Positions 1,706 through 57,127 of a stretch of 64,000 nt of DNA are shown piece by piece. The stretch comes from a candidate division FCPU426 bacterium (GTDB lineage Bacteria; Oederibacteriota; Muellerivitia; Muellerivitales; Muellerivitaceae): NCBI GenBank assembly GCA_963738405.1, contig CAVTWJ010000018.1, forward strand, positions 32,001 through 96,000, read 5' to 3'. Position 1 is the first letter of the stretch, and each line of letters opens with the position of its first letter. Both the position numbers and the translations under genes were made by a program. The notes below the pieces were generated by a model, which had not been told where the DNA came from, did not search any database, and saw nothing but the letters and a program-made list of their open reading frames with translations.

Positions 1706-1880
1706 GCTTCTTATTCCCGAAGAAGCATCCGAAAATTTCTCAAGGCCGGTCTCCTGACTTGGGGCAATTCACTCCTTGAACCTTCCCATCCCGTCTAAGG
1801 ACAGTGACTCAAAGAAAAACTTCGCCCCTCACAGTGGCGGGTCCGCGCCGGATTCGCACCGGCTTCCCGAGCACCTTAAG
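1706..1880 (-). ncRNA. Cobalamin riboswitch
   Basis: Minus strand reads AAGGTG..GGGAAGCCGGTGCGAATCCGGCGCGGACCCGCCACTGTGA...GTCACTG...GGGAAGG...AAGTCAGGAGACCGGCCTTG (B12 box). A P13-like hairpin lies at 1706-1726. Confidence 0.93.
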
Positions 1881-1889
1881 TTAAATGAT

Positions 1890-1918
1890 TTAATACGCTC
1901 CTTTATTTACACTGTCAA
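1890..1918 (-). promoter_or_regulatory. sigma70-type promoter for the btuB leader
   Basis: TTGACA-N17-TATTAA directly upstream of the riboswitch. Confidence 0.7.
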
Positions 1919-5421: not shown

Positions 5422-5614
5422 AAGCCCATTCCTCGAGGCTTGCTTTCCATGCCGAACCACAAAAATTCGGCGTTTCATCCAAGGCCGGTATCCTGACTCG
5501 GGATTTGCTTTTCGGGTCTTCCCGTCTTATCGACAGTGACCTTCGAAAAAAATCGTGCATCCCTTACAGTGGCGGGTCCGCACCGGATTTGCACCGGTTT
5601 CCCGAACACCTTGA
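5422..5614 (-). ncRNA. Cobalamin riboswitch
   Basis: Minus strand reads AAGGTGTTCGGGAAACCGGTGCAAATCCGGTGCGGACCCGCCACTGTAA...GTCACTG...GGGAAG...GAGTCAGGATACCGGCCTTG. A P13-like hairpin lies at 5422-5441. Confidence 0.93.
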
Positions 5615-5622
5615 ACGGGGCT

Positions 5623-5651
5623 ATTAAAGAGGGAGCCTAGAAGGCTGTCAA
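5623..5651 (-). promoter_or_regulatory. sigma70-type promoter for btuD-btuC-bluB-btuF
   Basis: TTGACA-N17-TTTAAT directly upstream of the riboswitch. Confidence 0.7.
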
Positions 5652-8640: not shown

Positions 8641-8711
8641 CAATTTCCGAAAGACAAAACGGGGCTTTTTAAAGGGATATCTGAGTTTTTTAGCGTTTGG
8701 GAGGCTTGTGG

Positions 8712-10097
8712 ATGAGTGTTACTGCAGATCTTTGGGATCGTTGCCTCGAAAACCTAAAAAAAGACTTAAATCAACAGAGTTTTGAAACCTGGTTTAAGGT
8801 CACTAAAGCTTCGGTTCGCGAAAAAACACTTCATGTTCAGGTTCCCAATGAATTTTTCAGGGACTGGATACGCGATCATTATCAGCCTCAGATTCAAAAG
8901 GCACTTAACCTCGTTCATCCAGAGCAATTGGAAATTCAATTTGAGATTGAAAACTCTGGTTTCTCTACCAATACAAATTCAACCCAAATCACACCAACAT
9001 TAAACATGGAAGTCGCTGAAAAGCCCCGAAACAACCCCTTAAATCCGAAAATTTCTAATGATTCTGAATTTACGCTGAATTCAAAGTTTAACTTTGAAAG
9101 CTTCGTCGTAGGTAATAGCAATCGATTCTCACACGCCGCCTGCCTAGCAGTTGCGGAATCACCCGCGAGATCCTATAACCCCTTGTTTATCTATGGCGGG
9201 GTCGGTCTTGGAAAAACTCACCTTCTTCAAGCTATTGGAAACTTTGTAATGACTCAAAACCCCCTCTCCCGAGTTCTTTACTTATCAAGCGAAAAGTTCA
9301 TGAACGACTTTATTCAAGCGATTCAATCGGGCAGACAACAGGATTTTCGTAATAAATACCGCACCGTTGACGTGCTTTTAATTGACGATATTCAGTTCTG
9401 GGAAGGAAAAGAAGCCACTCAAGAAGAGTTTTTTCATACTTTCAACGTCTTGTACGAGGCCCAAAAACAAATAGTCGCCACCTCCGATAGCCATCCGAAA
9501 GAAATTAAACTGGAAGAAAGGCTTAAGAACCGTTTTGAAATGGGACTCATAACGGATATTCAAGAACCGGATCTAGAAACGCGGATTGCCATCCTCAGAA
9601 AAAAAGCTGAAAACGAAGGAATTCTTGTTCCTAACGAGGTTACAACCTTCATTGCCAATCACGCTAAGGCGAATATCCGTGAACTTGAGGGCGCTATGCT
9701 ACGTGTCATCGCTTTCGCGTCTCTTACACGGCAAGAAGTGTCACTCAACCTGGCGAAGGAAATCCTAAAGGATACGTTCCCCAACGAGGATAAAAGGGTT
9801 TCCGTGGAAGATATTCAAAGAATTGTTGCGGATCGATATCACTGCCGATTTTCGGACATGAAATCTCGAAAGAGAACCAAGCAGATTGCTTTTCCAAGAC
9901 AAATCGCCATGTATCTCTCCCGAGAATTAACTCCCCATTCCCTCAGTGAAATTGGTGCAGCTTTCGGCGGTAAAGACCACACCACAATCATTCACGCCTA
10001 TGAAAAAATTGAAGATCTTCTTGTTTCGGATATCGCGCTCTTAGCAGAAGTAAATAGCCTTAAAAAACAACTTACCGACGGAAACTTCTCTTCCTAA
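8712..10097 (+). CDS. dnaA: Chromosomal replication initiator DnaA
   Basis: YNPLFIYGGVGLGKTHLL, LLIDDIQF, QEEFFHTFN, NIRELEGA, FGGKDHTTIIHA. The ATG at 8712 follows GGAGG. Confidence 0.98.
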   Translation: MSVTADLWDRCLENLKKDLNQQSFETWFKVTKASVREKTLHVQVPNEFFRDWIRDHYQPQIQKALNLVHPEQLEIQFEIENSGFSTNTNSTQITPTLNMEVAEKPRNNPLNPKISNDSEFTLNSKFNFESFVVGNSNRFSHAACLAVAESPARSYNPLFIYGGVGLGKTHLLQAIGNFVMTQNPLSRVLYLSSEKFMNDFIQAIQSGRQQDFRNKYRTVDVLLIDDIQFWEGKEATQEEFFHTFNVLYEAQKQIVATSDSHPKEIKLEERLKNRFEMGLITDIQEPDLETRIAILRKKAENEGILVPNEVTTFIANHAKANIRELEGAMLRVIAFASLTRQEVSLNLAKEILKDTFPNEDKRVSVEDIQRIVADRYHCRFSDMKSRKRTKQIAFPRQIAMYLSRELTPHSLSEIGAAFGGKDHTTIIHAYEKIEDLLVSDIALLAEVNSLKKQLTDGNFSS

Positions 10098-10130
10098 ACT
10101 TCTTTAACTAAATCCTTTCTAACTAGAACC

Positions 10131-10420
10131 TTTTACCCACAATGGATTCAGAATAGATTCACAAAGGTATTAGTTTCCGTTATTAAAATAATTTTTACTA
10201 TTTAATACACAGCCAAAAGTTAAGAAGCTGGGGAAGAAATGAGGATCATTGGGGATAAAGACCAAACTCATTGCGGGGTTGTTAATTTCCTTTATAATAC
10301 CCCCAATTTACACACAGGCTAAAAGACTGATTTTTCCATATCTTTATGCTTGATTCGGCTTTTCTACACAAACCCACAAAGCCTACTACTACTTCTAATT
10401 CCTTTTAAATTTAAAAGTCT
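10131..10420. other. oriC part 2: degenerate DnaA boxes, DnaA-trio run and AT-rich unwinding element
   Basis: TTACCCACA, TAATACACA, TGGGGATAA and TTTACACAC boxes, then TTCTACACAAACCCACAAAGCC-TACTACTACTTCTA-ATTCCTTTTAAATTTAAAA. Confidence 0.82.
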
Positions 10421-10463
10421 TTCAGTTAAAGTCTCTTTAATCGATGACTACAGGAGTTACTTT

Positions 10464-11585
10464 ATGAAAGTTGTTTTAACCCGAAGTGATTTCCAAAAGG
10501 GAATTTCAACAGTTCAGAGCGCAGTAGCTGCGAAAAATACCATGCCGATATTGGCTAATGTTCTCTTGGAAGCTAGGGATAAAAAACTTGAGTTTGTGGC
10601 TACTGATTTGGATATGGGTATTCGTTGTAGTGTTCCAGCGGAGGTAGTTGAAAAGGGAAGTATTACATTAAATGCGAAAAAATTGGCGGATATAGTTCGG
10701 GAACTTCCTGACGCCTCTGTTGACATTGAAATTGACGATAATCATAAAGTGATTCTTGTTTGTAAAAAATCAAACTTTAAAATTCATGGGTTACCAAAAG
10801 ATGATTTTCCAATTCTTCCAGAAGTTAAAAAAGATAAGGCTTTTAAAGTTAATGGGGTTCTTTTACAAGAAATGATTAGGAAAACAATTTTCGCGGTATC
10901 CAGCGATGAAACCAGATATGTCCTAAATGGTGTTTTTTTTCAGGCCGAAAATGGAAAACTTCGAATGGTCGCGACTGATGGCCATCGACTAGCTTTTATT
11001 CAGAAAAAAATGGAAGCAAAAAATGACGATAAATGCAGCGTCATTATTCCAACAAAAACTTTGAACGAGCTTTCCAAGGTTATTTCAGAAGTTGGAAAAG
11101 GTGAGGAAGAAAAGGAAACAACAGTCGAGATTATGGCCACCGATAATCAAATTAAATTTATGGTAGAAGGCGTTGAAATTGTTTCAAGACTCATCGAGGG
11201 ACAATTTCCCAACTATGAACAGGTGATTCCAAAGGAATCTGATAAAAAAATTGAGGCTTCCACGGAGGAATTGGCCGCAGCCACCCGCCGTGTCGCTATT
11301 TTAACGACTGAAAAATCCAATTCCATTCGATACCAAGCAAAAGGAAATAAACTTTCCGTTTCTTCAAAAACGCCCGATATGGGGGAAGCGAAAGAAGAAA
11401 TCGACGTAGTTTATAAAGGTGAAGAAATCAGTATTGCCTACAATTCAAAGTATGTTTTGGATGTTCTCAAAAACGTGGATACTAAGGAAATAAGCTTGGA
11501 ATTAACCCAGCCTTTGAGCCCTGGCATTATCCGGCCCAAGGGTGATCCTGATTACCTGTGCGTCATTATGCCAATGAGGGTTTAA
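10464..11585 (+). CDS. dnaN: DNA polymerase III beta sliding clamp
   Basis: MPILANVLL, VATDLDM, SDETRYVLNGV, VATDGHRL, SRLIEGQFPNY, VIMPMRV. The ATG at 10464 follows AGGAG. Confidence 0.98.
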   Translation: MKVVLTRSDFQKGISTVQSAVAAKNTMPILANVLLEARDKKLEFVATDLDMGIRCSVPAEVVEKGSITLNAKKLADIVRELPDASVDIEIDDNHKVILVCKKSNFKIHGLPKDDFPILPEVKKDKAFKVNGVLLQEMIRKTIFAVSSDETRYVLNGVFFQAENGKLRMVATDGHRLAFIQKKMEAKNDDKCSVIIPTKTLNELSKVISEVGKGEEEKETTVEIMATDNQIKFMVEGVEIVSRLIEGQFPNYEQVIPKESDKKIEASTEELAAATRRVAILTTEKSNSIRYQAKGNKLSVSSKTPDMGEAKEEIDVVYKGEEISIAYNSKYVLDVLKNVDTKEISLELTQPLSPGIIRPKGDPDYLCVIMPMRV

Positions 11586-25397: not shown

Positions 25398-25499
25398 GGA
25401 AGCCTCCAGACGAGGGATTAAGTGAAAGGCCGACTTTAACAAAGACGTAATGGGAATAAAAGGTTGAGAAAATAGGTAAGTTTACGCGCTATGGTTTTG

Positions 25500-25552
25500 T
25501 TGTCATTGCGAGGAGCAGCCCCAATCGGGGCGGTTTGCGACGTGGCAATCTC
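25500..25552 (+). repeat. 53-bp palindromic repeat (GTCATTGCGAG...GTGGCAATC type), intergenic copy
   Basis: 50/53 identical to the reverse complement of 48442-48494. Confidence 0.9.
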
Positions 25553-42175: not shown

Positions 42176-42320
42176 ATTTTCACCACCAAGACACCAAGGC
42201 ACCAAGAAAATCAAAAGGCAAGTTTGGGAAAATCTTTTAAAAGTGGGTACTTAAAAACGGCTTTTTGGTTTTGCTGTACCCAAAAAATCGATTCTTACTT
42301 GGTCTTCCTTGGTGGTAAAT
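42176..42320. repeat. CACCAAG-periodic inverted-repeat element, copy 1
   Basis: ATTTTCACCACCAAGACACCAAGGCACCAAGAAAA ... degenerate CTTGGTCTTCCTTGGTGGTAAAT. Confidence 0.8.
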
Positions 42321-45634: not shown

Positions 45635-45721
45635 CCACCACCAAGACACCAAGTACGGCAACCATTCTTATGTTTTAAACAATATTTTTTCTTGGTGCCT
45701 TGGTGTCTTGGTGGTGAAAAT
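45635..45721. repeat. CACCAAG-periodic inverted-repeat element, copy 2
   Basis: CCACCACCAAGACACCAAG ... TTTTCTTGGTGCCTTGGTGTCTTGGTGGTGAAAAT. Confidence 0.85.
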
Positions 45722-47778: not shown

Positions 47779-50700
47779 TTGAGTTTTTCAATTTATTTAG
47801 GCCCCTATCGGCCTTTTCTCGAACGGTCACTCTTTGATGAGGTGAAGAATCTCCGGCAAAAAGACCCCCTGACGCCGCTGGTGGTGCTGGTTCCCAACCG
47901 CTTGCTGGTGCGCCATCTGCGGGAGGCTTTGGCGCAAGACCAGGGGAAAATTTTCAACATCCGGTTCCTGACCTTCCACCAATATCTGCTGGAAGCCACC
48001 GAGGGGAAATGGATTCAAGAGGGGTTTCGGATGCTTCCCGAATCCCTGGTGTCCTGGGTTTTGCGGGAAACGGCCAGGGGACTCAAGCCCGCATTAAGGT
48101 CCTTCAAGTCGGTGGAAGAAACCCCCGGTTTCCACAGGACCCTCCAGGCCACCCTTTCCGAACTTCGGCAAGCCGGAATCGACCCGGCGGACCTGAAAGA
48201 ATCCTCCCGCAAGATCGGGAAGGACAAGACCCGCAAGAGGCTTTCGGAAAAATGGGATGAATTTTCCAAAATTCTTTCAGCCTATGAAGCCTGGAAGCGC
48301 CAGGAGAAATGGAAAGACCGGGAAGACCTTTATGTCGACGCCCTGACCCTGCCGCCGCCCGAAACCCCGATTTGGGCTTACGGCTTTTATGACGCACCGA
48401 CGCTACAAAAAAAAGTGTTACTTCACTTAACAGCAAAACCTGAGATTGCCACGTCGCCAAACGCCCCGATTGGGGCGGCTCCTCGCAATGACAATAAAAT
48501 GGAAAATTATTGGTTTATTCCCTACGAAGACCATCCGGCTTTTGAATACGCCAAGCCTTTCGTGGAATGGGCGAAAGAATATGGGAACGTTAAAGGCGTC
48601 GGGAAATATGAAAGTGAAAAGAAAACGCCGTTAGGTAAGTTACAGAACAACATATTTAAAACCGAACAACCTCAAGGCACCCCTCACCCTGACCCTCTCC
48701 CTCAAGGGGAGAGGGCGGCTGGTGCTCTAAAGTTTGAGGACTCCGATGTGAAGATTCTTCTGTGTCCCGGTGAACCCCGTGAAATGCGGGAAGTGGTAAG
48801 GTCCATCACCGAGGAAGCCCAGAGGCAGGGAAGTTCCTTTTCCCAATGCGGGTTGATATTGCGGCAGTTCGATGCCTACCGCCGGGAAATCGTTCCGGCC
48901 TTCGACGGCCAGAAAATCCCCATCGCCAAAAAGCCCCCGGTCTTTTTGTTAGAAACCCCGGAGGCCAAGGCCTTTTTGCTTCTGCTCGAATGTTTCCAGA
49001 ACGAATTTCCACGTGAGACCCTGATGAATTTCCTATCCAGCCCCAACCTGGATCCTTCGGGTTTTGGCCTCAAGAGCGCCGACTGGAATCCTCATTTGTG
49101 GGACCAGGCTTCCAAGGAAGCGGGCATCGTGGAAGGCGAAGGCGCCTGGCTTGACCGCTTGCAGGACCATCTACATGAAGGTTCCGACCCCGAAGGGCGG
49201 GATGAGGAAAGCTTCTCGAAAGAAGAAAGGGAAACGCTGAAGGCCTTCCGAAACCAGGTGCTTCATACGCTCTTCCAAGGGCGGCGGTTGTTCGAGAAAG
49301 AAAAGAACTGGGTGGGTAAGACTCGGGTGCTTTTTGACCTGGTCGAAAAGATCTTCCGGCCTTCCGAGGCGAAGGAACAATTGAAGACCCTTCGACGCGG
49401 CGTGGAGATTCTTTCCAAAGATTCTTTCACGGTCGAGAAAGACGAGTTGGCTTCGCTTCTCACTGGACTCATGGATGAGGTATCAATCCCCTGGGAGATT
49501 TCCGGCTTCGGCGGGGTCGAGGTGTCGGACCTCATGCAGGCCCGGGGCGTTCCCTTTGATGTGGTGGTTTTGCCCGGCTTGGTGGAGCAGGGCTTTCCCC
49601 GTGTGCCCCGGCAAGACCCTCTTTTGTTGGATGAGGAACGGCGCTTGCTCAACGGCCTACTTGAAGGCAAGGCCCATATCCCCGAGAAATCGGAGGGCCG
49701 ATTGGAAGAAAAGCTTCTCTTTCTTCTCATGGCCCGAAGCGCCAAGAAATGCCTTATCCTCACCGCCTCACATTTGCATCCCGGCACGGGCGCACCAAGG
49801 GTTCCATCCAGCTACCTGCACGAGACCCTTCGGGCCGTAACCGGCCAACGCCAGGCTGAATGGGGCGCGGATTCCCCCTATATCAAGAAGGTCGCGGTGT
49901 CCGATTGGATCAGGGACGAGGGCGCCACCCGGGTCGATGACCTGGAAGAGGTGCTTACCCGTTTTCAGGAAGCCCGCCAGGGCAACCCCCTGCCCGCCCA
50001 GGCCTATTTGGAAGGGAAGCCCTTCTATCAGGAAGCACGGGAAATGCTTCAGGAACGGCAGGGCAAGCGTCGTTTCACCCCCTATGACGGGGTCTTTGAG
50101 GATGCCAAGACCATCGAAAGGCTCAGCCAGGAACATTCCCTGCAACATAAACCCCTTTCGGCCTCGCGTCTGGAAACCTACGCCACCTGCCCACTGCGCT
50201 ATTTCTACCGCTATGTGCTGGGGTTGAAGATCCACCCCGAGCCTGAGCGGGTCTTTCAGTTGGACCCGGCGGAAAAGGGAAACCTGATGCACCAGGTTTT
50301 GGAGGAAGTTCTTTCCCGGGGCGTGAAGGAAGGCTGGCTGAAAGAACGCGACCAGGAGAAGGCCCGCAAGGTTCTTGGCGAAGAGACCCAGCGCATCTTC
50401 AAAAAGTTTGAAAAGGAAGGCGTGCCCGGATCGCTGGCCTTGTGGCAGTGGAGCCAGTTAATTTTGACCCAGGACCTGGAAAGGGTTTTGCGGGAGGTTT
50501 TGGAAGACCCAAATTGGACTCCTGTCGATTTTGAAAAGGCCTTTGGCCGTCCGGGCCAAGCCGAAGTGGCCTTTACCTCCCCCGCCGGAATCTTTCGGCT
50601 GGAAGGCTTCATGGACCGGGTGGATGTAAAAGCGGACGGGAAACACTTAAGGGTCGTGGATTACAAATCGGGTAGCGCTATCGGGTTCAAGAAGAACAGC

Positions 50701-51048
50701 GTGAAGGAAGGCACCAAGATCCAAATGCCTCTTTATCTCTGGGCCTGCCGCACGCTTTATCCCCATCTGACCCCCGAACAAGCGGTCTATGAGTTCATCA
50801 CCGCCAAGGGCGGCTACGGTTCTACGCCCTTCGATGCCACCGATTGGAACAAGGTCGAGGAACCCCTGAAGGCTCTTTTGACAACGGCCTCGCAAGCAGT
50901 GGAGCGGGGCCTTTTCCCCGCGGCGGCCAAGGCTTGCGAGCGATGTGACTTTAGATTGCTCTGCGGGCCGGGCGCTGAAAAGCGGGGAGAACGGAAGAGG
51001 GAAGATATGAAGGTTGGGGATTATTACAAGCTAGAAGAATTATTGTGA
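47779..51048 (+). CDS. addB: AddB-like inactive helicase / Fe-S nuclease subunit
   Basis: LVLVPN, ARGVPFDVVVLPGLVE, SASRLETYATCP, GFMDRVD, VDYKSG, QMPLY, CERCDFRLLC. Confidence 0.85.
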   Translation: MSFSIYLGPYRPFLERSLFDEVKNLRQKDPLTPLVVLVPNRLLVRHLREALAQDQGKIFNIRFLTFHQYLLEATEGKWIQEGFRMLPESLVSWVLRETARGLKPALRSFKSVEETPGFHRTLQATLSELRQAGIDPADLKESSRKIGKDKTRKRLSEKWDEFSKILSAYEAWKRQEKWKDREDLYVDALTLPPPETPIWAYGFYDAPTLQKKVLLHLTAKPEIATSPNAPIGAAPRNDNKMENYWFIPYEDHPAFEYAKPFVEWAKEYGNVKGVGKYESEKKTPLGKLQNNIFKTEQPQGTPHPDPLPQGERAAGALKFEDSDVKILLCPGEPREMREVVRSITEEAQRQGSSFSQCGLILRQFDAYRREIVPAFDGQKIPIAKKPPVFLLETPEAKAFLLLLECFQNEFPRETLMNFLSSPNLDPSGFGLKSADWNPHLWDQASKEAGIVEGEGAWLDRLQDHLHEGSDPEGRDEESFSKEERETLKAFRNQVLHTLFQGRRLFEKEKNWVGKTRVLFDLVEKIFRPSEAKEQLKTLRRGVEILSKDSFTVEKDELASLLTGLMDEVSIPWEISGFGGVEVSDLMQARGVPFDVVVLPGLVEQGFPRVPRQDPLLLDEERRLLNGLLEGKAHIPEKSEGRLEEKLLFLLMARSAKKCLILTASHLHPGTGAPRVPSSYLHETLRAVTGQRQAEWGADSPYIKKVAVSDWIRDEGATRVDDLEEVLTRFQEARQGNPLPAQAYLEGKPFYQEAREMLQERQGKRRFTPYDGVFEDAKTIERLSQEHSLQHKPLSASRLETYATCPLRYFYRYVLGLKIHPEPERVFQLDPAEKGNLMHQVLEEVLSRGVKEGWLKERDQEKARKVLGEETQRIFKKFEKEGVPGSLALWQWSQLILTQDLERVLREVLEDPNWTPVDFEKAFGRPGQAEVAFTSPAGIFRLEGFMDRVDVKADGKHLRVVDYKSGSAIGFKKNSVKEGTKIQMPLYLWACRTLYPHLTPEQAVYEFITAKGGYGSTPFDATDWNKVEEPLKALLTTASQAVERGLFPAAAKACERCDFRLLCGPGAEKRGERKREDMKVGDYYKLEELL
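48442..48494 (-). repeat. 53-bp palindromic repeat translated in frame inside addB
   Basis: Reverse-complement copy of 25500-25552; encodes EIATSPNAPIGAAPRNDN. Confidence 0.9.
48680..48715 (+). repeat. CCCTCACCC-CCCTCTCCC..GGGAGAGGG REP-type element translated in frame inside addB
   Basis: CCCCTCACCCTGACCCTCTCCC-TCAAG-GGGAGAGGG; encodes PHPDPLPQGER. Confidence 0.8.
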
Positions 51049-51064: not shown

Positions 51065-51595
51065 ATGAAATATTTTACAGGTGATATGTGGATGGGAGTT
51101 AATTCTTCAAATAAGAAGGTAATTAATAAAGCCGATTTAATGTGGAAAAGAAATATAAAAGCTTATTCAAAACAATTAGATGGATTAAGGAAACATTTAG
51201 GGAAAAGAAACTATGATTTTTTTAAAAATATTTCTTTGCACGATAGTTGTTTTATTTCATTCAAGTTCAACCAACGTGAAAGTGAAAGTGTTCAAAAGAT
51301 ATTAAGATCGCCATTTAATTTTCAAAAAAGAATAATTGAAATAATAACTATAGAAGCCGAAAAGAATCAGATAGTTAAATTGATTTATAAAAAAGTATTT
51401 TCTGTCTTTATGGATTTGCCTGAAAAAGCACCTTTATTCGATGACTCTGATTATTTGGGGGGATGGGGTTATGGAGAATTAACATTAGATAAAAAAGGCC
51501 ATCTTCAGCATGAAATACTTTTTAGCACTGGTGCGACGATTAAAATCGCCTTTGAAAATTTTGACTTTAAATATTTGTCAAAACCAAAGGTTTGA
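51065..51595 (+). CDS. Low-GC hypothetical protein (DUF4085-like)
   Basis: MKYFT, SLHDS, WGYGEL...QHEILFS; AGGAG RBS; visibly AT-rich. Confidence 0.6.
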   Translation: MKYFTGDMWMGVNSSNKKVINKADLMWKRNIKAYSKQLDGLRKHLGKRNYDFFKNISLHDSCFISFKFNQRESESVQKILRSPFNFQKRIIEIITIEAEKNQIVKLIYKKVFSVFMDLPEKAPLFDDSDYLGGWGYGELTLDKKGHLQHEILFSTGATIKIAFENFDFKYLSKPKV

Positions 51596-51647: not shown

Positions 51648-54600
51648 ATGATCTCTGACCAATCAATCCGAACCCTAGTCACACATGACCACGAGACCCT
51701 CTTTGCAGTGGATGCGGGAGCGGGCACGGGTAAGACCACACAATTGGTCGCCCGGCTTATCGCCCTATTACTCGAAAAGAAGGTTCCTTTAAGCCGCATC
51801 GCGGCCATTACCTTCACTGAAAAAGCTGCCGCGGAGTTGGCCCAACGTCTGCGCTTTAAACTTGAGGAAGCTCTCCCAAAATATCCCGAACAGAAAGCCC
51901 TGATCCTGAAAGCCTTAGAGGACATGGAGCGGGCCCCCATTTCGACCATCCATTCCTTTTGCGCTGGGTTATTGAAGGACTACCCGGTTGAGGCCGGAGT
52001 AGACCCTCAATTTGCCCTGATGGATGAAGTTCAATCAGGCGCTTTCGAGACCCAGACCTGGGAACATTGGCTGAAAAAGAACCTTTCCCAACCCGTCGAG
52101 CCCCTCTTCCAGTTCCTCCGCCTGGGCGGGACCTTCGAGCATGTGGATGAATTGAAGCAGTTCCTCAAGCGAAACCGGACCCTTCTGAAAACCCCTGAAA
52201 AACAAGCTCTTCCTTCGGTTGAGCCATTCCGCAAGGAGTGGAAAGAATTCCTCATCTGGAGCAAACAAGCCGCGAAGGACTGTAAAGACCACAAAGACAA
52301 GTTGTATGAAGCCCTCGAAACCTTCTGGGCCGAGAGCCAGGTTCAGGAATCCTCGAAGCCGGAGGAAGCGGATTTTAACCTCGCTTTGTTGGATATCCCC
52401 AAGGTGAAAAGAACGGGCAATCAAAAGGCCTGGGATAAGGCGGTCTTGGACGAGATTCGCCTGCGTTTTGAGGGGCTCGCGGAAGACCACACTTCCGCCT
52501 TTGCGCCTTTCCGTGAAGCGGTGTTGTTGAACCTCATCCATTGGATTGGGGGTTACCTGACAGAATGGGAAACCCAGAAGGCTAAGAGCGGTTTCCTCGA
52601 TTTCGACGATCTACTTTTAAAAACACGGGACCTCTTGCGCGACCACCTGGACAGTCGGGAAGAGATCAAGAAACGGTTCGACACCCTCTTCGTGGACGAG
52701 TTTCAGGACACCGACCCTTTGCAGGTGGAGATCGTGTTTTTCCTCTGTGAGTTGCAGGGTCGCCATGAAAAGGATTGGAAAAAAGCTTCTCTTGAACCTG
52801 GAAAATTGTTTTTGGTAGGTGACCCCAAGCAAAGCATCTACCGGTTCCGGCGGGCGGATGTAGCCATCTATGAAGCCACCAAAGAACGCATTTTAGCCAA
52901 CGGGGGGAAGGTCGAGGTTCTGACCGAGAACTTCCGCACTGTGGGCGGGTTGGTGGAGTGGGTCAACGAGCGGTTCCTTCCTCAATTCGAAGGTTCGGGC
53001 ATCACCTATCGAGCCCTGAACGCCAGCCGGGAGAAAGGTAAGACAGAAGGCACGCTTCCCATTCTTTGGGGGCTGAAGGTCCCTGTGCCGGAGGGTTCGG
53101 AAGACACCAAGGCCTTTTACCGTCAGCAGGAAGCCGAGTGGGTGGCGGCCTATTTGAAAGACCAGATCCTTCAGGGTGGGTGGACCGTCGCGGACCCCAA
53201 AACGCATGAGCGGCGGGCCGTTCGGGCGGGGGATATCGCCCTGTTATTCCGGGACCTTTCCAATGACAACGAAGAATACTGGGAAGAGGCCCTGCGCAAG
53301 CGGGACCTGCCCTACCAGATCATCGGGGGCAAGAGGTTCTACAACCGGCCCGAGATTGTGGCCCTCTCCACTCTCCTCACTTGTCTTTCCTCGCCTGCGG
53401 ATGAGGCGGCCTGCGTGGCGGTTTTACGGGGACCCCTCTTTGGGTTCTCGGACGAAGAATTGTTCCTTCATCGTGCTGACAAGGGTTCTTTCCTGTTTCA
53501 AGAAGATGCGAAAGAAAAGATGGGAAAAGCCTTTAAGTGTTTACGGGATTGGTTCGACGCCACCCGCACGCTCGGCGTATCGGAAACCTTGAGCTACCTC
53601 TACGAACACACCAACCTCTTAGCCATCACCGCCGGGCAACCCCACGGGGAACAGCGGGTCGCCAACCTCATGAAGGTCTTAGACCAAGCGCGGAACCTTG
53701 AAACCACCCAGCATTTCACCTACCGGGCTTTCACCCAGTGGCTGACCACCCAGCAAGAAGAAGGAACCTTAGAGGGCGAGGCGCCGGGGCCCGATTCCTC
53801 CGAGGACCGCACCGGTGTCTTTTATGACACCGGTACCGACAAAACCAGCGCCTCGGCTGGTGGCCTCGGCGCAGATCGCATCACCCTCATGACCATTCAC
53901 AAGGCCAAGGGGTTGGAATTCCCCATCGTGTTCGTTTCCGCCTGGTCATCGGACCCCAAGGATTCGGGGAGCCTGGTGGACCGCAAGGCCATGGTGGGCG
54001 CTTTCAAAGTTGGCCGAGCCGACTTAGGCTTAAAGACCACAAATTACGATTCGGTCAAAGAAGATGAAGAGCTTCAACAACTAGCCGAAAACACCCGATT
54101 GCTCTATGTGGCGGCCACCCGTGCCCGGGACTGTCTTTTACTGCCCCATTTCCAAATGCCTCTCGAGTGCAAATTCCAAAACGAAAACCTTTTTGCGGGG
54201 CCCCTCTTGAAGGCCTTGGAAGAAAAGGACTCGCCAGTGCGGTCTGCGCCGAGGCCACCAGCCGAGGCGGAAGATTTGACGATACTGGCGTCAATAAAGA
54301 CGCCAGTGCGTTGGGCGGAACCGGATAGTATCAAAGAGTCGCTGGGCGACCCGGCCGTTTGGTCGGTGAAACTGAACGTGGACCCGAAAGACCCGGCGCT
54401 TAAGGCGGAAAAAGAAAAACTCGTTTCCGAAAATCAAAAACGCACAGGTCTGATCGAAAGGATGATGGGCAAGCGAACTTTTCAATCGGTTACTTCGGTC
54501 CTCGCTGTGGATGAAGATAAGAAAGGAACCGAAGAACGCATCTGGGAAGGGCCTGAGCCTTCTTCCCCCTGGGGTGGAAAGGAATTGGGTTCCTTCACCC

Positions 54601-55028
54601 ATCTACTTTTGGAAAAGGCCTGGGATTGGAAACCAGCCCAAATCCCTCAGGCCGCGGAATATTACGGTGAAAAGATGGGTCTTTCACCTGAACAAAGGGC
54701 GGAGGCGGCCCAGTGGGTCGAACAGACCCTTTTGAACCCTCTCATCCAAAGGGCTAAAAAATCCGAAAGGGCCTTCCGGGAATTGCCCCTTACGGGAAAA
54801 TATGAAGATGATTTTTTGAACGCGGTGCTCGACCTGGTCTTTTTGGAAGAAGGGAAATGGGTCATTGTGGATTACAAAACCGACCGGGACCCGAACAAGT
54901 TAGCCGAAAAATACGGGAAGCAATTAAAACATTACGCCAAGCTTTTGGAGCAGACCACCCAAATACCCGTCAAAGAAGCCCATCTCCTCTTTATCCGGGA
55001 GAATCGGGCCCAAGCTGTCCCCCTTTAA
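51648..55028 (+). CDS. addA: AddA-like UvrD helicase / RecB nuclease
   Basis: AGAGTGKT, ITFTEKAA, STIHSFC, VDEFQDT, VGDPKQSIYRFR, MTIHKAKGLEF, YVAATRA, DLV...IVDYKTD. Confidence 0.92.
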   Translation: MISDQSIRTLVTHDHETLFAVDAGAGTGKTTQLVARLIALLLEKKVPLSRIAAITFTEKAAAELAQRLRFKLEEALPKYPEQKALILKALEDMERAPISTIHSFCAGLLKDYPVEAGVDPQFALMDEVQSGAFETQTWEHWLKKNLSQPVEPLFQFLRLGGTFEHVDELKQFLKRNRTLLKTPEKQALPSVEPFRKEWKEFLIWSKQAAKDCKDHKDKLYEALETFWAESQVQESSKPEEADFNLALLDIPKVKRTGNQKAWDKAVLDEIRLRFEGLAEDHTSAFAPFREAVLLNLIHWIGGYLTEWETQKAKSGFLDFDDLLLKTRDLLRDHLDSREEIKKRFDTLFVDEFQDTDPLQVEIVFFLCELQGRHEKDWKKASLEPGKLFLVGDPKQSIYRFRRADVAIYEATKERILANGGKVEVLTENFRTVGGLVEWVNERFLPQFEGSGITYRALNASREKGKTEGTLPILWGLKVPVPEGSEDTKAFYRQQEAEWVAAYLKDQILQGGWTVADPKTHERRAVRAGDIALLFRDLSNDNEEYWEEALRKRDLPYQIIGGKRFYNRPEIVALSTLLTCLSSPADEAACVAVLRGPLFGFSDEELFLHRADKGSFLFQEDAKEKMGKAFKCLRDWFDATRTLGVSETLSYLYEHTNLLAITAGQPHGEQRVANLMKVLDQARNLETTQHFTYRAFTQWLTTQQEEGTLEGEAPGPDSSEDRTGVFYDTGTDKTSASAGGLGADRITLMTIHKAKGLEFPIVFVSAWSSDPKDSGSLVDRKAMVGAFKVGRADLGLKTTNYDSVKEDEELQQLAENTRLLYVAATRARDCLLLPHFQMPLECKFQNENLFAGPLLKALEEKDSPVRSAPRPPAEAEDLTILASIKTPVRWAEPDSIKESLGDPAVWSVKLNVDPKDPALKAEKEKLVSENQKRTGLIERMMGKRTFQSVTSVLAVDEDKKGTEERIWEGPEPSSPWGGKELGSFTHLLLEKAWDWKPAQIPQAAEYYGEKMGLSPEQRAEAAQWVEQTLLNPLIQRAKKSERAFRELPLTGKYEDDFLNAVLDLVFLEEGKWVIVDYKTDRDPNKLAEKYGKQLKHYAKLLEQTTQIPVKEAHLLFIRENRAQAVPL
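53808..53876 (+). repeat. 69-bp double-hairpin element in frame inside addA, copy 1
   Basis: 56/69 identical to the reverse complement of 54242-54310. Confidence 0.9.
54242..54310 (-). repeat. 69-bp double-hairpin element in frame inside addA, copy 2
   Basis: Direct repeat CGCCAGTGCG at 54232 and 54301, 69 bp apart. Confidence 0.9.
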
Positions 55029-57127
55029 CTTCCTAACCCCAACTGTCCCATTTCATATTTCAACCAGGCGTTTCCCGGGGAAAGCTTCTGGGCCTTTTGG
55101 AAAATCTTTTTAGCTTCCGCTTTTTCGCCTTCTACGGCCAAGAGCTTGCCGTATTTTTCACATAGAGTCGCATCCTGGTAGCTTTTCCCAAAAGATTGAT
55201 GGAATGTTTCCGAGAAATTATTCCAATTCGCCCAGTTATCCCCCGGGAAAAAAGTATTTTCCCAGGAAAAATTAAAAGCCAGTTTTTCGAAATAACAAGA
55301 TTGAAGAAAGGGGTCGGAAGGGATGGAGGGATAGGCCTGTAACATTTTTTCAAGGACCGCTTGGTGGGGTTTGCCGGTGGGGATATCCACCGATTCCAAA
55401 TTGATCTCCTGCTGAAACGTGTAATAACTTTTCCATCGCTCCAGGAAGGTCCTATTTACCGGAGTCACCGGTAAAATCCCGAGCGCGTGCCGGCTCAAGA
55501 CCCCGGGTTGAGGGGTCCCGCCGTTGATCCAACGGCAGTCAGGGAGAGCCTGGGATAAAAAGGGTAGATAGTGGGTTTCCGTAAAGACCGCCGCCCATTT
55601 CACGTCTTGTCCCAGACGCTGGTTCCAGGCCGCGTTGAAAGGGTAGGAACAATAGGCCAGCGAGTAATTTTGGGGGCTGGGAACCATATCCGAAAAGATC
55701 CAACCGGGTCCCTCCGCCCTCGCCAGGTTGTCCAGACTCCTATATCCGTCCCGGTACTCGCTGAAATCGACCTGGGCGGGATTCGGAAGAAATAACCGAT
55801 TGAGGTCCCAAACCGCCGAAGAACCCAGCACCACGACCAGCAGGAGGGGACGTAATCGGCCTGGCAGGGATAAGACCAAGGTTTCTATTCCCAAGGCCAA
55901 AAAGATCAGCAGAAGGGGTAACGCTAGGAGCATCCGGTGGGCTTCCAGGTCCCTGGATAAAAGGCCGGGCAGGAGGAAGATGGGAAAGGCAACCAAAAGA
56001 ATTTTGGATAGTAATTTAAAGCGCCCTCGGACCATTTCAACGAATCCCAAAAGGAAAGCCGATCCCAATAAGGCGTTTAATAGCCCCCCTTGGGGCGCCA
56101 ATTCCATCCCCGAGGTCCCGCCCCAAAAAATCGCCTGAAGATAACTGAAAGCGACCCGCGCCTGACCCCATAGGGTAAAAGAAGGATCATTCCAAGCCGC
56201 TACTTCATGCAAATGCCCGCCATAGCCCGTCCCAACCGCCGTGAGAAGAAAAGGAACCATTCCCCCCAAAAGAAAAATGAAAAAAAGTCCTCCGGCGGCC
56301 CACTCCGTTTTTTTCCAAAACCATCCGCCTGCCACCCCCAACCCAAATAGAGTTAATACGGGCCAAGCCATAAAGGTATAGGGCCCCAAGCCCAAGGCCA
56401 GCCCCAAGGCGCAGGCCCAAATTTTTCGGGAGGCGGGATTGGGGGACAAAGTCAAACGGCCGAACAGGTAAAGTACCCCCCATTCCCAAAAGGGAAGCAA
56501 AACCCCCGGTTCATCGCACCGGGAAAGAAGAAGGTCCCATAGGTTGAAAGCCGTTATAACCGCGAGGATTCCCGCGAGGGGCCTTGAAAAATAAAGGCGC
56601 GCGGCGGCATAGCTTAAAACCACGGTCAAAAACGAGACCAGGGCCGAGGGAATTTGGATTCCCAGAAGATTCGAACCCGTCAACCTTGCCGCGAAATAGA
56701 AAAGGTAACTGAGCGTGCTGGGAACCTGGCTTAGGATCACAAAAGGTTTCCATTGCCAATGGTCCATCCACTGGATGACCGACAGGGCCAAGAGGGAAGA
56801 GTCCCCTCCCGGCCAGCGGCTTAAGGAACCGATACCCCAAAATCTCACGAGGGCCGCGAACGTCAGGAGGAAAAACCAAACCCAGACTGGGAAGGAAGCG
56901 TTTTCGCCGGAACCCTTGGATCGAAGAAATGAACGATCCCTGGCCGGGGAAGAGGGGGATAAATAAATCAAAAGCAAGGGCAAGGCTAATCCTAAAAGAA
57001 GAATCCGGATTTTGGAGGGTGGGGAAAGCGGAGTCTGGGATAAAAGCGAAAGGCTGGCGGCCAGTATGATAAAACAAAGCCAAGCGGGAAATGGAATCGA
57101 CCGGGCTGTTATTTTGTTTTTTTTCAC
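55025..57127 (-). CDS. Polytopic GT-C (ArnT/PMT-like) glycosyltransferase with a C-terminal TPR-like helix pair
   Basis: LVRFWGIG..WPGGDS, many transmembrane helices, C-terminal YGKLLAVEGEKAEAKKIFQKAQKLSP. Confidence 0.65.
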   Translation of the reverse strand: MKKNKITARSIPFPAWLCFIILAASLSLLSQTPLSPPSKIRILLLGLALPLLLIYLSPSSPARDRSFLRSKGSGENASFPVWVWFFLLTFAALVRFWGIGSLSRWPGGDSSLLALSVIQWMDHWQWKPFVILSQVPSTLSYLFYFAARLTGSNLLGIQIPSALVSFLTVVLSYAAARLYFSRPLAGILAVITAFNLWDLLLSRCDEPGVLLPFWEWGVLYLFGRLTLSPNPASRKIWACALGLALGLGPYTFMAWPVLTLFGLGVAGGWFWKKTEWAAGGLFFIFLLGGMVPFLLTAVGTGYGGHLHEVAAWNDPSFTLWGQARVAFSYLQAIFWGGTSGMELAPQGGLLNALLGSAFLLGFVEMVRGRFKLLSKILLVAFPIFLLPGLLSRDLEAHRMLLALPLLLIFLALGIETLVLSLPGRLRPLLLVVVLGSSAVWDLNRLFLPNPAQVDFSEYRDGYRSLDNLARAEGPGWIFSDMVPSPQNYSLAYCSYPFNAAWNQRLGQDVKWAAVFTETHYLPFLSQALPDCRWINGGTPQPGVLSRHALGILPVTPVNRTFLERWKSYYTFQQEINLESVDIPTGKPHQAVLEKMLQAYPSIPSDPFLQSCYFEKLAFNFSWENTFFPGDNWANWNNFSETFHQSFGKSYQDATLCEKYGKLLAVEGEKAEAKKIFQKAQKLSPGNAWLKYEMGQLGLGS

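What the first reader, a model, noticed from the sequence alone, without database searches (positions are those of the whole stretch)
53805..54310. 69-bp frame-preserving double-hairpin element, present twice in opposite orientations inside addA
Seen: copy 1 (53808-53876) and the reverse complement of copy 2 (54242-54310) are 56/69 identical. Stem 1 shows two compensatory pair changes (ACCGGTGTC-N6-GACACCGGT versus ACTGGCGTC-N6-GACGCCAGT). Stem 2, CGCCTCGGC-TGGTG-GCCTCGGCG, is invariant and forms tandem GA/GA on the opposite strand. Both copies have direct repeats exactly 69 bp (23 codons) apart: GACCGCA/GATCGCA and CGCCAGTGCG twice. Removing copy 1 restores ...EDRITLMTIHKAKGLEF, the canonical approach to helicase motif V. 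Removing copy 2 gives ...DSPVRWAEP. The two copies encode unrelated peptides, so conservation is at the level of nucleic-acid structure. Inference: a miniature mobile element I do not recognise, stop-free as read in both orientations here, that targets CGCA-containing sites and may excise precisely.
Basis: partly seen in the sequence, partly recalled or inferred. Interest (0 to 1): 0.87.

Follow-up and report, generated by a model that had tools for sequence, protein, structure and literature searches.

The report
Small in-frame palindromic insert in addA
A 69-base hairpin-forming piece of selfish-looking DNA sits twice, in opposite directions, inside a DNA-repair helicase gene without breaking it, and close relatives of the gene have or lack it exactly; this resembles the palindromic repeats already known inside bacterial repair genes.

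Summary
The two 69-nt copies are 56/69 identical, share an identical 27-nt core, have a 9-bp stem with two double changes, and are flanked by direct repeats spaced exactly 69 nt apart.

Both copies are true insertions. In an alignment of 61 AddA homologues, site 1 is filled in 5. Site 2 is filled in 4 of the 29 closest, plus 2 fragments. All others show an exact 23-residue gap, and all four fill/empty combinations occur.

Carriers are scattered on the AddA tree: at least 5 changes for 5 carriers at site 1 and 4 for 4 at site 2. AU tests reject carrier monophyly.

Both inserts fall in low-confidence coil of the predicted AddA. Site 1 has no counterpart in the solved B. subtilis AddA.

I read it as a new family of REP/RPE-like palindromic element tolerated in frame in linkers. 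In-frame palindromic repeats in repair genes, recBCD and UvrD included, are in print (PMC3733652).

Not shown: any complete copy outside addA, a mobilising enzyme, or CGCA targeting. My one genome scan used too loose a pattern. Other in-frame repeat families also sit in addA and addB of this lineage.

The parts
51648..55028 (+). Host gene: AddA-like helicase-nuclease, 1126 aa (P0001)
   Evidence: Pfam finds UvrD-helicase, UvrD_C, AAA_19 and a C-terminal PD-(D/E)XK domain. The best solved relative is B. subtilis AddA, 3u44_A, E = 1.3e-47. An AddB-like ORF lies upstream at 47779-51048.
53808..53876 (+). Copy 1 of the 69-nt element, codons 721-743, read as RTGVFYDTGTDKTSASAGGLGAD. Its boundaries are ambiguous within the flanking repeat.
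   Evidence: It is absent as an exact 23-aa gap in 56 of 61 aligned homologues. B. subtilis AddA has no counterpart for query residues 721-741. pLDDT is below 50 over residues 711-741.
53811..53834 (+). Stem-loop 1 of copy 1: ACCGGTGTC / TTTTAT / GACACCGGT
   Evidence: (I8).
53849..53871 (+). Stem-loop 2 / direct repeat of GCCTCGGC in copy 1. The invariant core extends to 53875.
53805..53811 (+). Left direct repeat at site 1 (GACCGCA)
   Evidence: Read. Its partner is 69 nt downstream.
53874..53880 (+). Right direct repeat at site 1 (GATCGCA)
   Evidence: Read. It matches the left repeat at 6/7 positions.
54242..54310 (-). Copy 2 of the element, inverted, read through in the addA frame as (R)SAPRPPAEAEDLTILASIKTPV(R)
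   Evidence: It is absent as an exact 23-aa gap in 25 of the 29 closest homologues. pLDDT is below 50 over residues 865-883.
54284..54307 (-). Stem-loop 1 of copy 2: ACTGGCGTC / 6-nt loop / GACGCCAGT
   Evidence: (I12).
54247..54269 (-). Stem-loop 2 / direct repeat core of copy 2
54232..54241 (+). Upstream direct repeat at site 2 (CGCCAGTGCG)
   Evidence: (D2).
54301..54310 (+). Downstream direct repeat at site 2 (CGCCAGTGCG). It overlaps one arm of stem 1.
   Evidence: (D2).

Best explanation
The 69-bp unit is a small non-autonomous palindromic repeat of the REP/RPE kind and belongs to a family not yet described. It has inserted into addA at two inter-domain linkers, and probably at a third site in a distant relative.

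Its length is 23 codons and the surviving copies are stop-free in the frame used. The ribosome therefore reads through it, and it becomes a disordered surface loop. The peptide is a passenger.

What is conserved is DNA. There is an invariant core: two GCCTCGGC half-sites, or equivalently an 11-bp-capable hairpin with a tandem G.A on one strand, followed by CAGAY and CGCA. Beside it lies a 9-bp hairpin whose sequence can change while it stays paired.

Shown: the unit is an insertion; it is exactly present or absent among close orthologues; and its distribution conflicts with the gene tree.

Inferred: it arrives next to a CGCA-type sequence, moved in trans by an enzyme that recognises the core. 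I think a single-strand hairpin-binding HUH/Y1-type enzyme is the most likely candidate. It is lost exactly, either by the same seamless excision or by slippage between the 7-10-nt flanking repeats, helped by the hairpins.
For: Insertion and polymorphism:
- Exact 23-aa gaps at both sites, with all four fill/empty combinations.
- Two further site-2 carriers, P0122 and P0123, and a 4-aa remnant allele, P0124.

Conflict with the gene tree:
- The minimum number of changes equals the number of carriers: 5 at site 1 and 4 at site 2.
- P0002 (+/-) is sister to P0006 (-/-), and P0009 (+/-) is sister to P0011 (-/+), both with 99 SH-aLRT support.
- AU tests reject one clade for all 5 site-1 carriers (p = 1.9e-6), for P0001 + P0002 (p = 1.7e-4), and for P0005 + P0009 + P0010 (p = 2.6e-3).

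Constraint on the DNA or recent spread:
- Between the two host clades, the site-2 insert is 69/92 identical while the 60 flanking residues are 130/248 identical.
- P0003 versus P0005 is 20/23 in the insert, although the hosts are 71% identical overall.
- P0001 versus P0003 is only 17/23 in the insert, although the hosts are 88% identical.

DNA-level features:
- Opposite orientations with unrelated peptides.
- Flanking repeats at exactly 69 nt.
- A loop variant in copy 2 that removes a stop.

Possible third site: P0042 has a 21-aa insert present in 1 of 61 aligned sequences. It is colinear with element frame (+,1) at 11 of 18 positions, including K-x-APR-x-VASAQ.

Tolerance: both inserts lie in coil with pLDDT below 50, and site 1 lies in a gap against solved AddA.

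Context: the same operon and its orthologues carry other repeat families in frame.

Precedent: in-frame REPs encoding 20-30 aa in repair genes, including recBCD and UvrD/Rep (PMC3733652, passages). IS200/IS605 excision is precise and proceeds through a single-strand circle (PMC5027513, start of the abstract in the listing).
Against: - No complete copy outside addA was found. The window has only the two copies.
- Peptide searches in frames (+,0) and (-,1) returned only AddA proteins: 9 hits among 121 candidates and 5 among 57.
- The profile search in frame (+,1) returned nothing, not even P0042, so it had no power.
- There are no terminal inverted repeats, and the flanking repeats have unequal lengths (7 and 10 nt). 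This is unlike a classical transposase footprint.
- The two hairpins are unlike each other, whereas IS200/IS605 ends carry similar hairpins.
- The bases 5' of stem 2 differ between the copies, so no conserved 'guide' exists.
- The two copies face opposite ways on one replichore (dnaA lies at 8.7 kb and cumulative GC skew rises to the right). Single-strand transposons show strand bias.
- No transposase was found among the 31 window ORFs scanned.
- Covariation rests on 2 pairs in 2 sequences. Both sit where copy 2's arm equals the flanking repeat.
Confidence: 0.55

Rival explanations
1. Old inserts with loss only. Each site was filled once in an ancestor of the roughly 29 closest AddA sequences, and the element has been immobile since. 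The patchy pattern comes from many independent exact deletions between the flanking repeats.
For: - Flanking repeats of 7 and 10 nt around hairpin-forming DNA are the classic substrate for slippage (the mechanism is recalled).
- Site-1 peptides sort by host clade: YDTGTDKT in clade A and NDTGTVKS in clade B.
- The remnant allele P0124 shows that deletion does happen here.
- Other insert families in these proteins occur as partial versions.
- No copy outside addA was found.
Against: - By my reading of the tree, this needs roughly 15 independent exact losses per site, against 4-5 gains.
- An unconstrained loop retained that long should be less conserved than it is. The site-2 insert is 75% identical against 52% for its flanks.
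- Insert similarity is incongruent with the host tree.
- It does not explain two inverted copies plus a candidate third site in a 40%-identical relative.
Confidence: 0.25
2. Allele shuffling. The inserts arose once and spread among co-existing strains by homologous recombination of addA segments, so the gene tree is a mosaic.
For: - All sequences come from metagenomes or MAGs of related populations.
- The flanks of site 1 are almost invariant, 54-62 of 63 residues, which would favour recombination.
Against: - The flanks of site 2 are only about 52% identical between clades, yet the insert is shared.
- Recombination does not create the second, inverted copy.
Confidence: 0.1
3. A one-off local inverted duplication within this genome's addA.
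For: Both copies lie 365 nt apart in one gene, and no other copy exists in the window.
Against: Relatives carry site 1 alone (P0002, P0009, P0010) or site 2 alone (P0003, P0011), in two separate clades.
Confidence: 0.02
4. Selected protein loops, or RNA-level removal (translational bypass or an intron-like segment).
For: - The inserts are conserved.
- The flanking repeats could serve as take-off and landing codons.
Against: - The two orientations give unrelated peptides.
- The segments are predicted to be disordered.
- Length divisible by 3, an open frame, and a loop variant that removes a stop all argue for read-through.
- No Rfam family matches.
Confidence: 0.03

Closest known systems
Intragenic REP elements (GTAG- and CGTC-tagged palindromic repeats; Di Nocera et al. 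2013, PMC3733652)
   Same: - Short stem-loops of 8-9 bp, often paired units, inserted in frame and encoding 20-30 aa.
- Found notably in replication and repair genes, including recBCD and UvrD/Rep helicases.
- Sometimes inserted twice in one gene.
- Sometimes the only tagged coding sequences in a genome (passages read).
   Different: - There is no GTAG or CGTC tag at the end of the stem. CGCA precedes stem 1.
- There is no CCA tail.
- The two stem-loops are unrelated to each other and lie in tandem, not head-to-head.
- Copy number in the genome is unknown.
Rickettsia palindromic elements (RPE; Ogata et al. 2000, seen only as cited in PMC10969869 and PMC3733652)
   Same: Palindromic selfish DNA inserted in frame in functional genes, translated as an extra peptide, and compatible with the fold.
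   Different: - RPEs are about 105-150 bp and are dispersed over many unrelated genes of one genus.
- This unit is 69 bp and so far has been seen only in addA.
- Sequence similarity to RPEs was not tested, because no RPE sequence was in hand.
IS200/IS605-type single-strand elements and their miniature derivatives
   Same: - No terminal inverted repeats, with hairpins near both ends.
- A fixed tetranucleotide abuts the left end and closes the right end (CGCA at both sites).
- Excision is expected to be seamless, which would give exact empty sites (PMC5027513 and PMC3201880, starts of the abstracts in the listing).
   Different: - The hairpins are dissimilar.
- No conserved guide lies 5' of stem 2.
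- The site-2 repeat is 10 nt, not 4.
- The copies are in opposite orientations on one replichore.
- No TnpA was seen.

Membership tests
AddA (host gene) | UvrD-type SF1 helicase core plus a C-terminal PD-(D/E)XK nuclease, encoded next to addB | tested here: met
   Pfam domains, best solved match B. subtilis AddA, and an AddB-like ORF at 47779-51048.
Classical MITE | Terminal inverted repeats | tested here: not met
   The ends CGCACC... and ...GCGCAGAT are not inverted copies of each other. The repeat finder lists only the internal stem.
Classical MITE | Target-site duplication of fixed length | tested here: inconclusive
   The direct repeats are 7 nt (6/7 identical) at site 1 and 10 nt (exact) at site 2. 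The lengths are unequal, with only two sites.
Classical MITE | Many dispersed copies and a parent IS | not testable with these tools
   Only 64 kb of the genome is held, with 2 copies, both in addA.
GTAG/CGTC REP superfamilies (PMC3733652) | GTAG or CGTC (TGTC, CCTC) tag at one end of the stem-loop | tested here: not met
   The bases before stem 1 are CGCA. CGTC and TGTC occur only inside the stem next to the loop (definition).
GTAG/CGTC REP superfamilies (PMC3733652) | Stem of 8-9 bp beginning with A-T pairs, loop of 4-5 nt, and a 3-nt tail close to CCA (CGTC type) | tested here: not met
   Stem 1 is 9 bp, but only its first pair is A-T, its loop is 6 nt, and its tail is ACC or ATC.
GTAG/CGTC REP superfamilies (PMC3733652) | Association with a RAYT gene (GTAG type) | not testable with these tools
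   None among the 31 window ORFs scanned. The rest of the genome was not seen.
IS200/IS605-derived miniature element | Similar subterminal imperfect hairpins at both ends, bound by one TnpA | tested here: not met
   Stem-loops 1 and 2 share no sequence.
IS200/IS605-derived miniature element | Insertion 3' of a fixed tetranucleotide without duplication, and seamless excision | tested here: inconclusive
   CGCA abuts both copies, and the empty orthologues are exact. However, there are only two sites, and the site-2 repeat is 10 nt.
IS200/IS605-derived miniature element | Guide tetranucleotide at the hairpin foot that matches the cleavage site | tested here: not met
   The bases 5' of stem 2 are CCAG in copy 1 and CTTC in copy 2.
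IS200/IS605-derived miniature element | Strand bias to the lagging-strand template | tested here: inconclusive
   The two copies lie in opposite orientations about 45 kb to the right of dnaA. There are only two copies.
Rickettsia palindromic elements | Sequence membership in an RPE family | not tested
   No RPE sequence was in hand. The size (69 bp against about 105-146 bp) does not fit.
Integron attC site | Terminal core sites (consensus recalled from memory, not from a call) | tested here: not met
   No such inverted core sites lie at the ends, by reading.

The most novel reading that the evidence does not exclude
The unit is not a general dispersed repeat. It would instead be an addA-restricted element that excises seamlessly and re-inserts at the same two or three linker sites. 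That would be a homing-like behaviour directed at the gene of the cell's own DNA-end-processing nuclease, driven by a hairpin-binding enzyme not yet identified. Its invariant loop carries the E. coli Chi octamer GCTGGTGG, and the two copies face each other, so it might even interact with AddAB itself.
Probability: 0.1. Interest if true: 0.8.

Novelty: new member of a known kind. Interest (0 to 1): 0.45.

Why it matters
If the reading holds, this is an unusually clean natural example of a tiny hairpin element going in and out of an intact gene without breaking it. The filled, empty, single-site, double-site and remnant alleles are all sampled in nature. That makes the mechanism of gain and loss of intragenic palindromic repeats directly testable. 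It also extends to an uncultured lineage the published and unexplained observation that such repeats gather in DNA-repair genes. In that lineage AddA and AddB carry several repeat families in frame. The practical consequence is for annotation: 23-residue 'lineage-specific loops' in such proteins are repeat DNA, not protein features.

Tried and rejected
1. Genome scan. The pattern CGCCTCGGC-N5-GCCTCGGCG was too loose. The best in-register identity was 40/69.
- Many hits are a conserved DASAGGLGGC coding motif (my naming, recalled).
- The CM run over 100 of the 119 loci gave about 20 bits by construction. Of the top three hits, L072 is that motif and L068 is a glycosidase-like ORF. L014 is kept as a lead.
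- This scan is no evidence of absence.

2. A 23-aa peptide query was too short for the search for homologous proteins, so I used 40-aa stretches instead. One search missed the known carriers P0003 and P0011, so its sensitivity is limited.

3. A profile of frame (+,1) searched against 1.84 billion representatives gave 0 hits, not even P0042. The search had no power.

4. CM R1 run on the window with filters off found only the two copies. A 16.6-bit hit at 49899-49971 lacks stem 1 and is judged to be chance.

5. Rfam gave no family here.

6. Searches of plasmids and phages gave only partial matches of 24-35 nt. The Thioclava hit has no stem 1 and no insertion signature, and is judged to be chance.

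8. The Chi idea. GCTGGTGG occurs 5 times in the window against 2.07 expected. Two of the five are the element itself, so there is no enrichment. The GNTGGTGG excess is mostly GGTGGTGG.

9. A phmmer search of AddB against the PDB gave no hit.

10. Literature searches found no description of this element.

Full report
**The observation**

The region was read directly. Copy 1 (53808-53876) and the reverse complement of copy 2 (54242-54310) match at 56 of 69 positions. With 10-nt flanks added, the match is 66/89 in register and at most 32/89 at any offset of 1-6 nt. The repeat finder sees the pair as 82-nt arms, 79% complementary.

The last 27 nt are identical. The 23-nt core occurs nowhere else in the 64-kb window with up to 3 mismatches allowed, against 0.00 expected.

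Stem 1 is a perfect 9-bp hairpin with a 6-nt loop in both copies. Seven pairs never vary, and two are changed on both sides. With two sequences the shuffle control has no power (124/500). My own estimate is about 0.01 that four transitions among 18 stem positions fall as two complementary pairs. This is inference.

Stem 2 pairs 4 + 3 bp around a T.C/C.T mismatch, which is G.A/A.G on the other strand. It is just as well described as two direct GCCTCGGC half-sites 13 nt apart. Because it is invariant, nothing here tests whether it folds.

Folding as single-stranded DNA gives z-scores of -4.4 and -3.4 for copy 1 and -2.7 and -2.75 for copy 2.

Direct repeats lie exactly 69 nt apart:
- Site 1: GACCGCA and GATCGCA.
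- Site 2: CGCCAGTGCG twice.

Ten-nt repeats at 20-100-nt spacing occur at roughly 17 places in the window (27 k-mer hits, against 5.9 in shuffles). Such repeats are therefore not rare in general. One that brackets the unit at exactly its own length is not expected by chance.

**The host**

The ORF 51648-55028 encodes a 1126-aa protein with UvrD helicase domains and a C-terminal PD-(D/E)XK nuclease. Its best solved relative is B. subtilis AddA (E = 1.3e-47). An AddB-like ORF lies upstream.

Copy 1 is codons 721-743. Copy 2 begins in phase 2 of codon 865.

Six-frame reading shows:
- Frames (+,0), (+,1) and (-,0) are open in both copies.
- Frame (+,2) is closed in both.
- Frame (-,1), the one used by copy 2, would be closed by TAA if copy 2 had copy 1's loop. 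The two loops differ at exactly those bases.

This is what selection on a translated insert would leave.

**Both copies are insertions, and they are polymorphic**

A search with residues 620-960 returned 1382 proteins with E at or below 0.001, and the best 120 were listed. I aligned the first 61.

- Site 1 is filled in 5 of 61 (P0001, P0002, P0005, P0009, P0010). It is an exact 23-residue gap in the other 56, which read ...SSED-RITLMTIH....
- Site 2 is filled in 4 of the 29 closest (P0001, P0003, P0005, P0011) and is an exact gap in the other 25. Beyond P0029 this linker aligns poorly. P0032 and P0033 do not cover it.

All four combinations exist. Two further fragments carry site 2 (P0122, P0123).

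P0124 reads DSPVQTPVHW at site 2. Both repeat copies are kept and the 19 residues between them are gone, which leaves a 12-nt remnant.

Against solved AddA, query residues 721-741 have no counterpart. The alignment stops at 720 and resumes at 742, five residues before the TLMTIH motif.

An AlphaFold model built from a 54-row alignment has mean pLDDT 81.9 and pTM 0.68. Residues 711-741 and 865-883 are coil with pLDDT below 50. Few rows of the alignment cover those columns, which by itself lowers confidence there.

**Distribution on the tree**

The tree had 36 rows: P0001-P0031 plus five outgroup rows (P0034, P0036, P0042, P0050, P0051). The insert columns were removed. The method was IQ-TREE quick with LG+G4. 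I left out P0032 and P0033 as fragments, along with the other distant rows.

Carriers fall in two separate starred clades of six rows each, and are mixed with empties in both. The fewest changes are 5 for the five site-1 carriers and 4 for the four site-2 carriers. P0002 (+/-) is sister to P0006 (-/-), and P0009 (+/-) is sister to P0011 (-/+), both at 99 support.

AU tests reject one clade for:
- all site-1 carriers (p = 1.9e-6);
- P0001 + P0002 (p = 1.7e-4);
- P0005 + P0009 + P0010 (p = 2.6e-3).

I named these groups after seeing the tree, which weakens the p-values. Counts of changes do not tell gain from loss.

**Conservation of the inserts**

Between the two clades, the site-2 insert is 17, 15, 20 and 17 of 23 identical, which sums to 69/92. 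The 60 flanking residues are 34, 33, 32 and 31 of 62 identical, which sums to 130/248.

Insert similarity does not follow the hosts:
- P0003 versus P0005: 20/23 in the insert, with 71% host identity.
- P0001 versus P0003: 17/23 in the insert, with 88% host identity.
- P0005 versus P0011: 15/23 in the insert, with 83% host identity.

The insert is therefore either constrained as DNA or younger than the host split.

Against this, site-1 peptides sort by clade. That fits long residence.

**Copies elsewhere**

This is the weak point. I spent the single genome scan on a pattern with an open loop. It says nothing about absence.

Peptide searches against 5.8 billion proteins found only AddA proteins:
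- Frame (+,0): 9 hits among 121 candidates. All five known carriers were recovered.
- Frame (-,1): 5 hits among 57 candidates. Two known carriers were missed.

A profile search in frame (+,1) found nothing, not even the positive control. A covariance model found only the two copies in the window. Plasmid and phage collections gave only short partial matches.

Two leads remain.
- P0042 is an AddA of the outgroup clade, about 48% identical overall to the window's AddA (40% over the query region). It has a 21-residue insert at a third site that none of the other 60 aligned proteins has. The insert is colinear with the element's frame (+,1): S-x-M, five residues, then K-x-APR-x-VASAQ, 11 of 18 identical. 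Its ADSIMESA stretch could be encoded by a hairpin. This is inferred from protein alone.
- L014 is an Acidobacteriaceae MAG. Of the 119 scan loci, it alone matches copy 2 at 13 of the 16 bases after the core. The others match at 11 or fewer, with a mode of 4-6. It reads PVQSAPRQAAEA inside a low-complexity protein, but it has no stem 1 at the expected place.

**Context**

No transposase domain appears in the 31 window ORFs scanned. The operon is nevertheless full of repeat DNA in frame.
- addB carries a 58-nt dispersed repeat at 48442-48499, read as EIATSPNAPIGAAPRNDNK. A second copy, 93% identical, lies between genes at 25495-25552.
- addB also carries a perfect 9-bp hairpin at 48693-48715, read as PLPQGER.
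- Of about ten distinct perfect hairpins of 9 bp or more in 64 kb, three lie in addA or addB.
- In the 61-protein alignment, at least six other positions hold rare inserts with repeat-like peptides, some in partial forms.

**How it most likely works**

Shown: the unit is an insert, translated in frame within linkers, exactly present or absent among close relatives, and distributed against the gene tree.

Inferred:
- The invariant core followed by CAGAY and CGCA is the part that an enzyme recognises.
- Stem 1 needs only to pair.
- The unit enters beside a CGCA-type sequence.
- It leaves exactly, either by the seamless excision that single-strand HUH/Y1 elements perform or by slippage between the flanking repeats. 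The HUH/Y1 point rests on PMC5027513 and PMC3201880, of which I saw only the starts of the abstracts in the listing.

Points against an IS200/IS605-type mechanism:
- the hairpins are unlike each other;
- there is no conserved guide;
- the site-2 repeat is 10 nt;
- the two copies lie in opposite orientations on one replichore.

One caution concerns the 'compensatory' changes. Copy 2's stem arm is identical to the flanking repeat at both variant positions. The changes may therefore have been copied from the target and then templated across the palindrome, rather than selected.

**Comparison with what is known**

The closest description is the intragenic REPs of Di Nocera et al. 2013 (PMC3733652; I read the abstract, section 6 and passages). 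These are stem-loops of 8-9 bp, often in pairs, that encode 20-30 residues. They occur in uvrA, uvrB, dnaE2, recBCD and UvrD/Rep helicase genes, sometimes twice per gene, and are sometimes the only tagged coding sequences in a genome.

The defining GTAG or CGTC tag and the CCA tail are not present here. The unit works like those elements but is not a member of those superfamilies.

Rickettsia RPEs are the other precedent (seen as cited in PMC10969869, PMC3733652 and PMC3184786).

Four literature searches found no report of this unit. Supplements were not opened. Additional file 3 of PMC3733652, which lists target ORFs, may bear on recB and addA cases.

**Verdict**

The finding is real and neat, but it belongs to a known kind. 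The patchy exact presence and absence, the inverted pair in one gene, and the remnant allele make it a good system for studying gain and loss of such elements. Whether it is a dispersed mobile family or an addA-bound oddity remains open.

Noticed in passing
window 48442-48499 (in addB) and 25495-25552 (intergenic, opposite strand): A 58-nt dispersed repeat, 93% identical between its two copies. The addB copy is read in frame as PEIATSPNAPIGAAPRNDNK. Whether orthologues lack it was not checked.
   Followed up: partly
window 48693-48715 (in addB): A perfect 9-bp hairpin, CCCTCTCCC-TCAAG-GGGAGAGGG, read in frame as ...PHPDPLPQGERAAG.... Similar PLPQGER/GEGR peptides appear as rare inserts in AddA orthologues.
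   Followed up: partly
AddA orthologues P0004-P0053 (alignment, list): At least six further positions hold rare in-frame inserts with repeat-like peptides. Examples are PSPLEGEGRVRG...HPHPDLLPSREKG, GLRGTGGFGGQVQV, TPHPDPLPQGAR...SPSPLRGEGRDE, GTTKARRSPGGL and PVRLASLAQ. Some occur as half or partial versions.
   Followed up: partly
P0124, at site 2 of AddA: It reads DSPVQTPVHW. Both flanking repeat copies are kept and the 19 inner residues are absent. This is a 12-nt remnant, or possibly a pre-insertion duplication.
   Followed up: partly
P0042, residues 477-497: A 21-residue insert at a third AddA site, unique among the 61 aligned proteins. It is colinear with the element read in frame (+,1). 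Its DNA was not seen.
   Followed up: partly
P0052, one residue from site 1: An 8-residue insert, PSTGSGQG, found in one homologue only. P0031 has the similar KKNPSTNSGQAGF at another site.
   Followed up: no
L014 600-640 (Acidobacteriaceae MAG contig): The core, the next 13 of 16 bases of copy 2, and a tandem TGCACYGGA motif lie inside a low-complexity zinc-ribbon protein. No stem 1 is present. It may be a partial relative.
   Followed up: partly
window 53856-53863 (+) and 54255-54262 (-): The loop of stem 2 holds the E. coli Chi octamer GCTGGTGG, and the two copies face each other. The octamer is not enriched in the window: 5 occurrences against 2.07 expected, two of them the element itself. 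It is altered in P0042 and in P0005 site 1, judging from their peptides.
   Followed up: partly
window 42176-42210 and 45687-45721: A perfect 35-nt inverted repeat pair brackets 3.5 kb that holds a BamE-like ORF and an AIR-synthase-related ORF.
   Followed up: no
window 1727-1893 and 5466-5628 (both on the - strand): Two cobalamin riboswitches (100.7 and 96.5 bits) flank a periplasmic-binding-protein gene cluster.
   Followed up: no
window 8697-11585: dnaA and dnaN lie here, and cumulative GC skew rises from about 8 kb onward. The window probably spans the replication origin.
   Followed up: no
window 51065-51595 (+) and 55025-57127 (-): A 176-aa ORF lies between addB and addA, and a 700-aa ORF lies downstream of addA. 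Neither has a Pfam match at E <= 1e-5.
   Followed up: no
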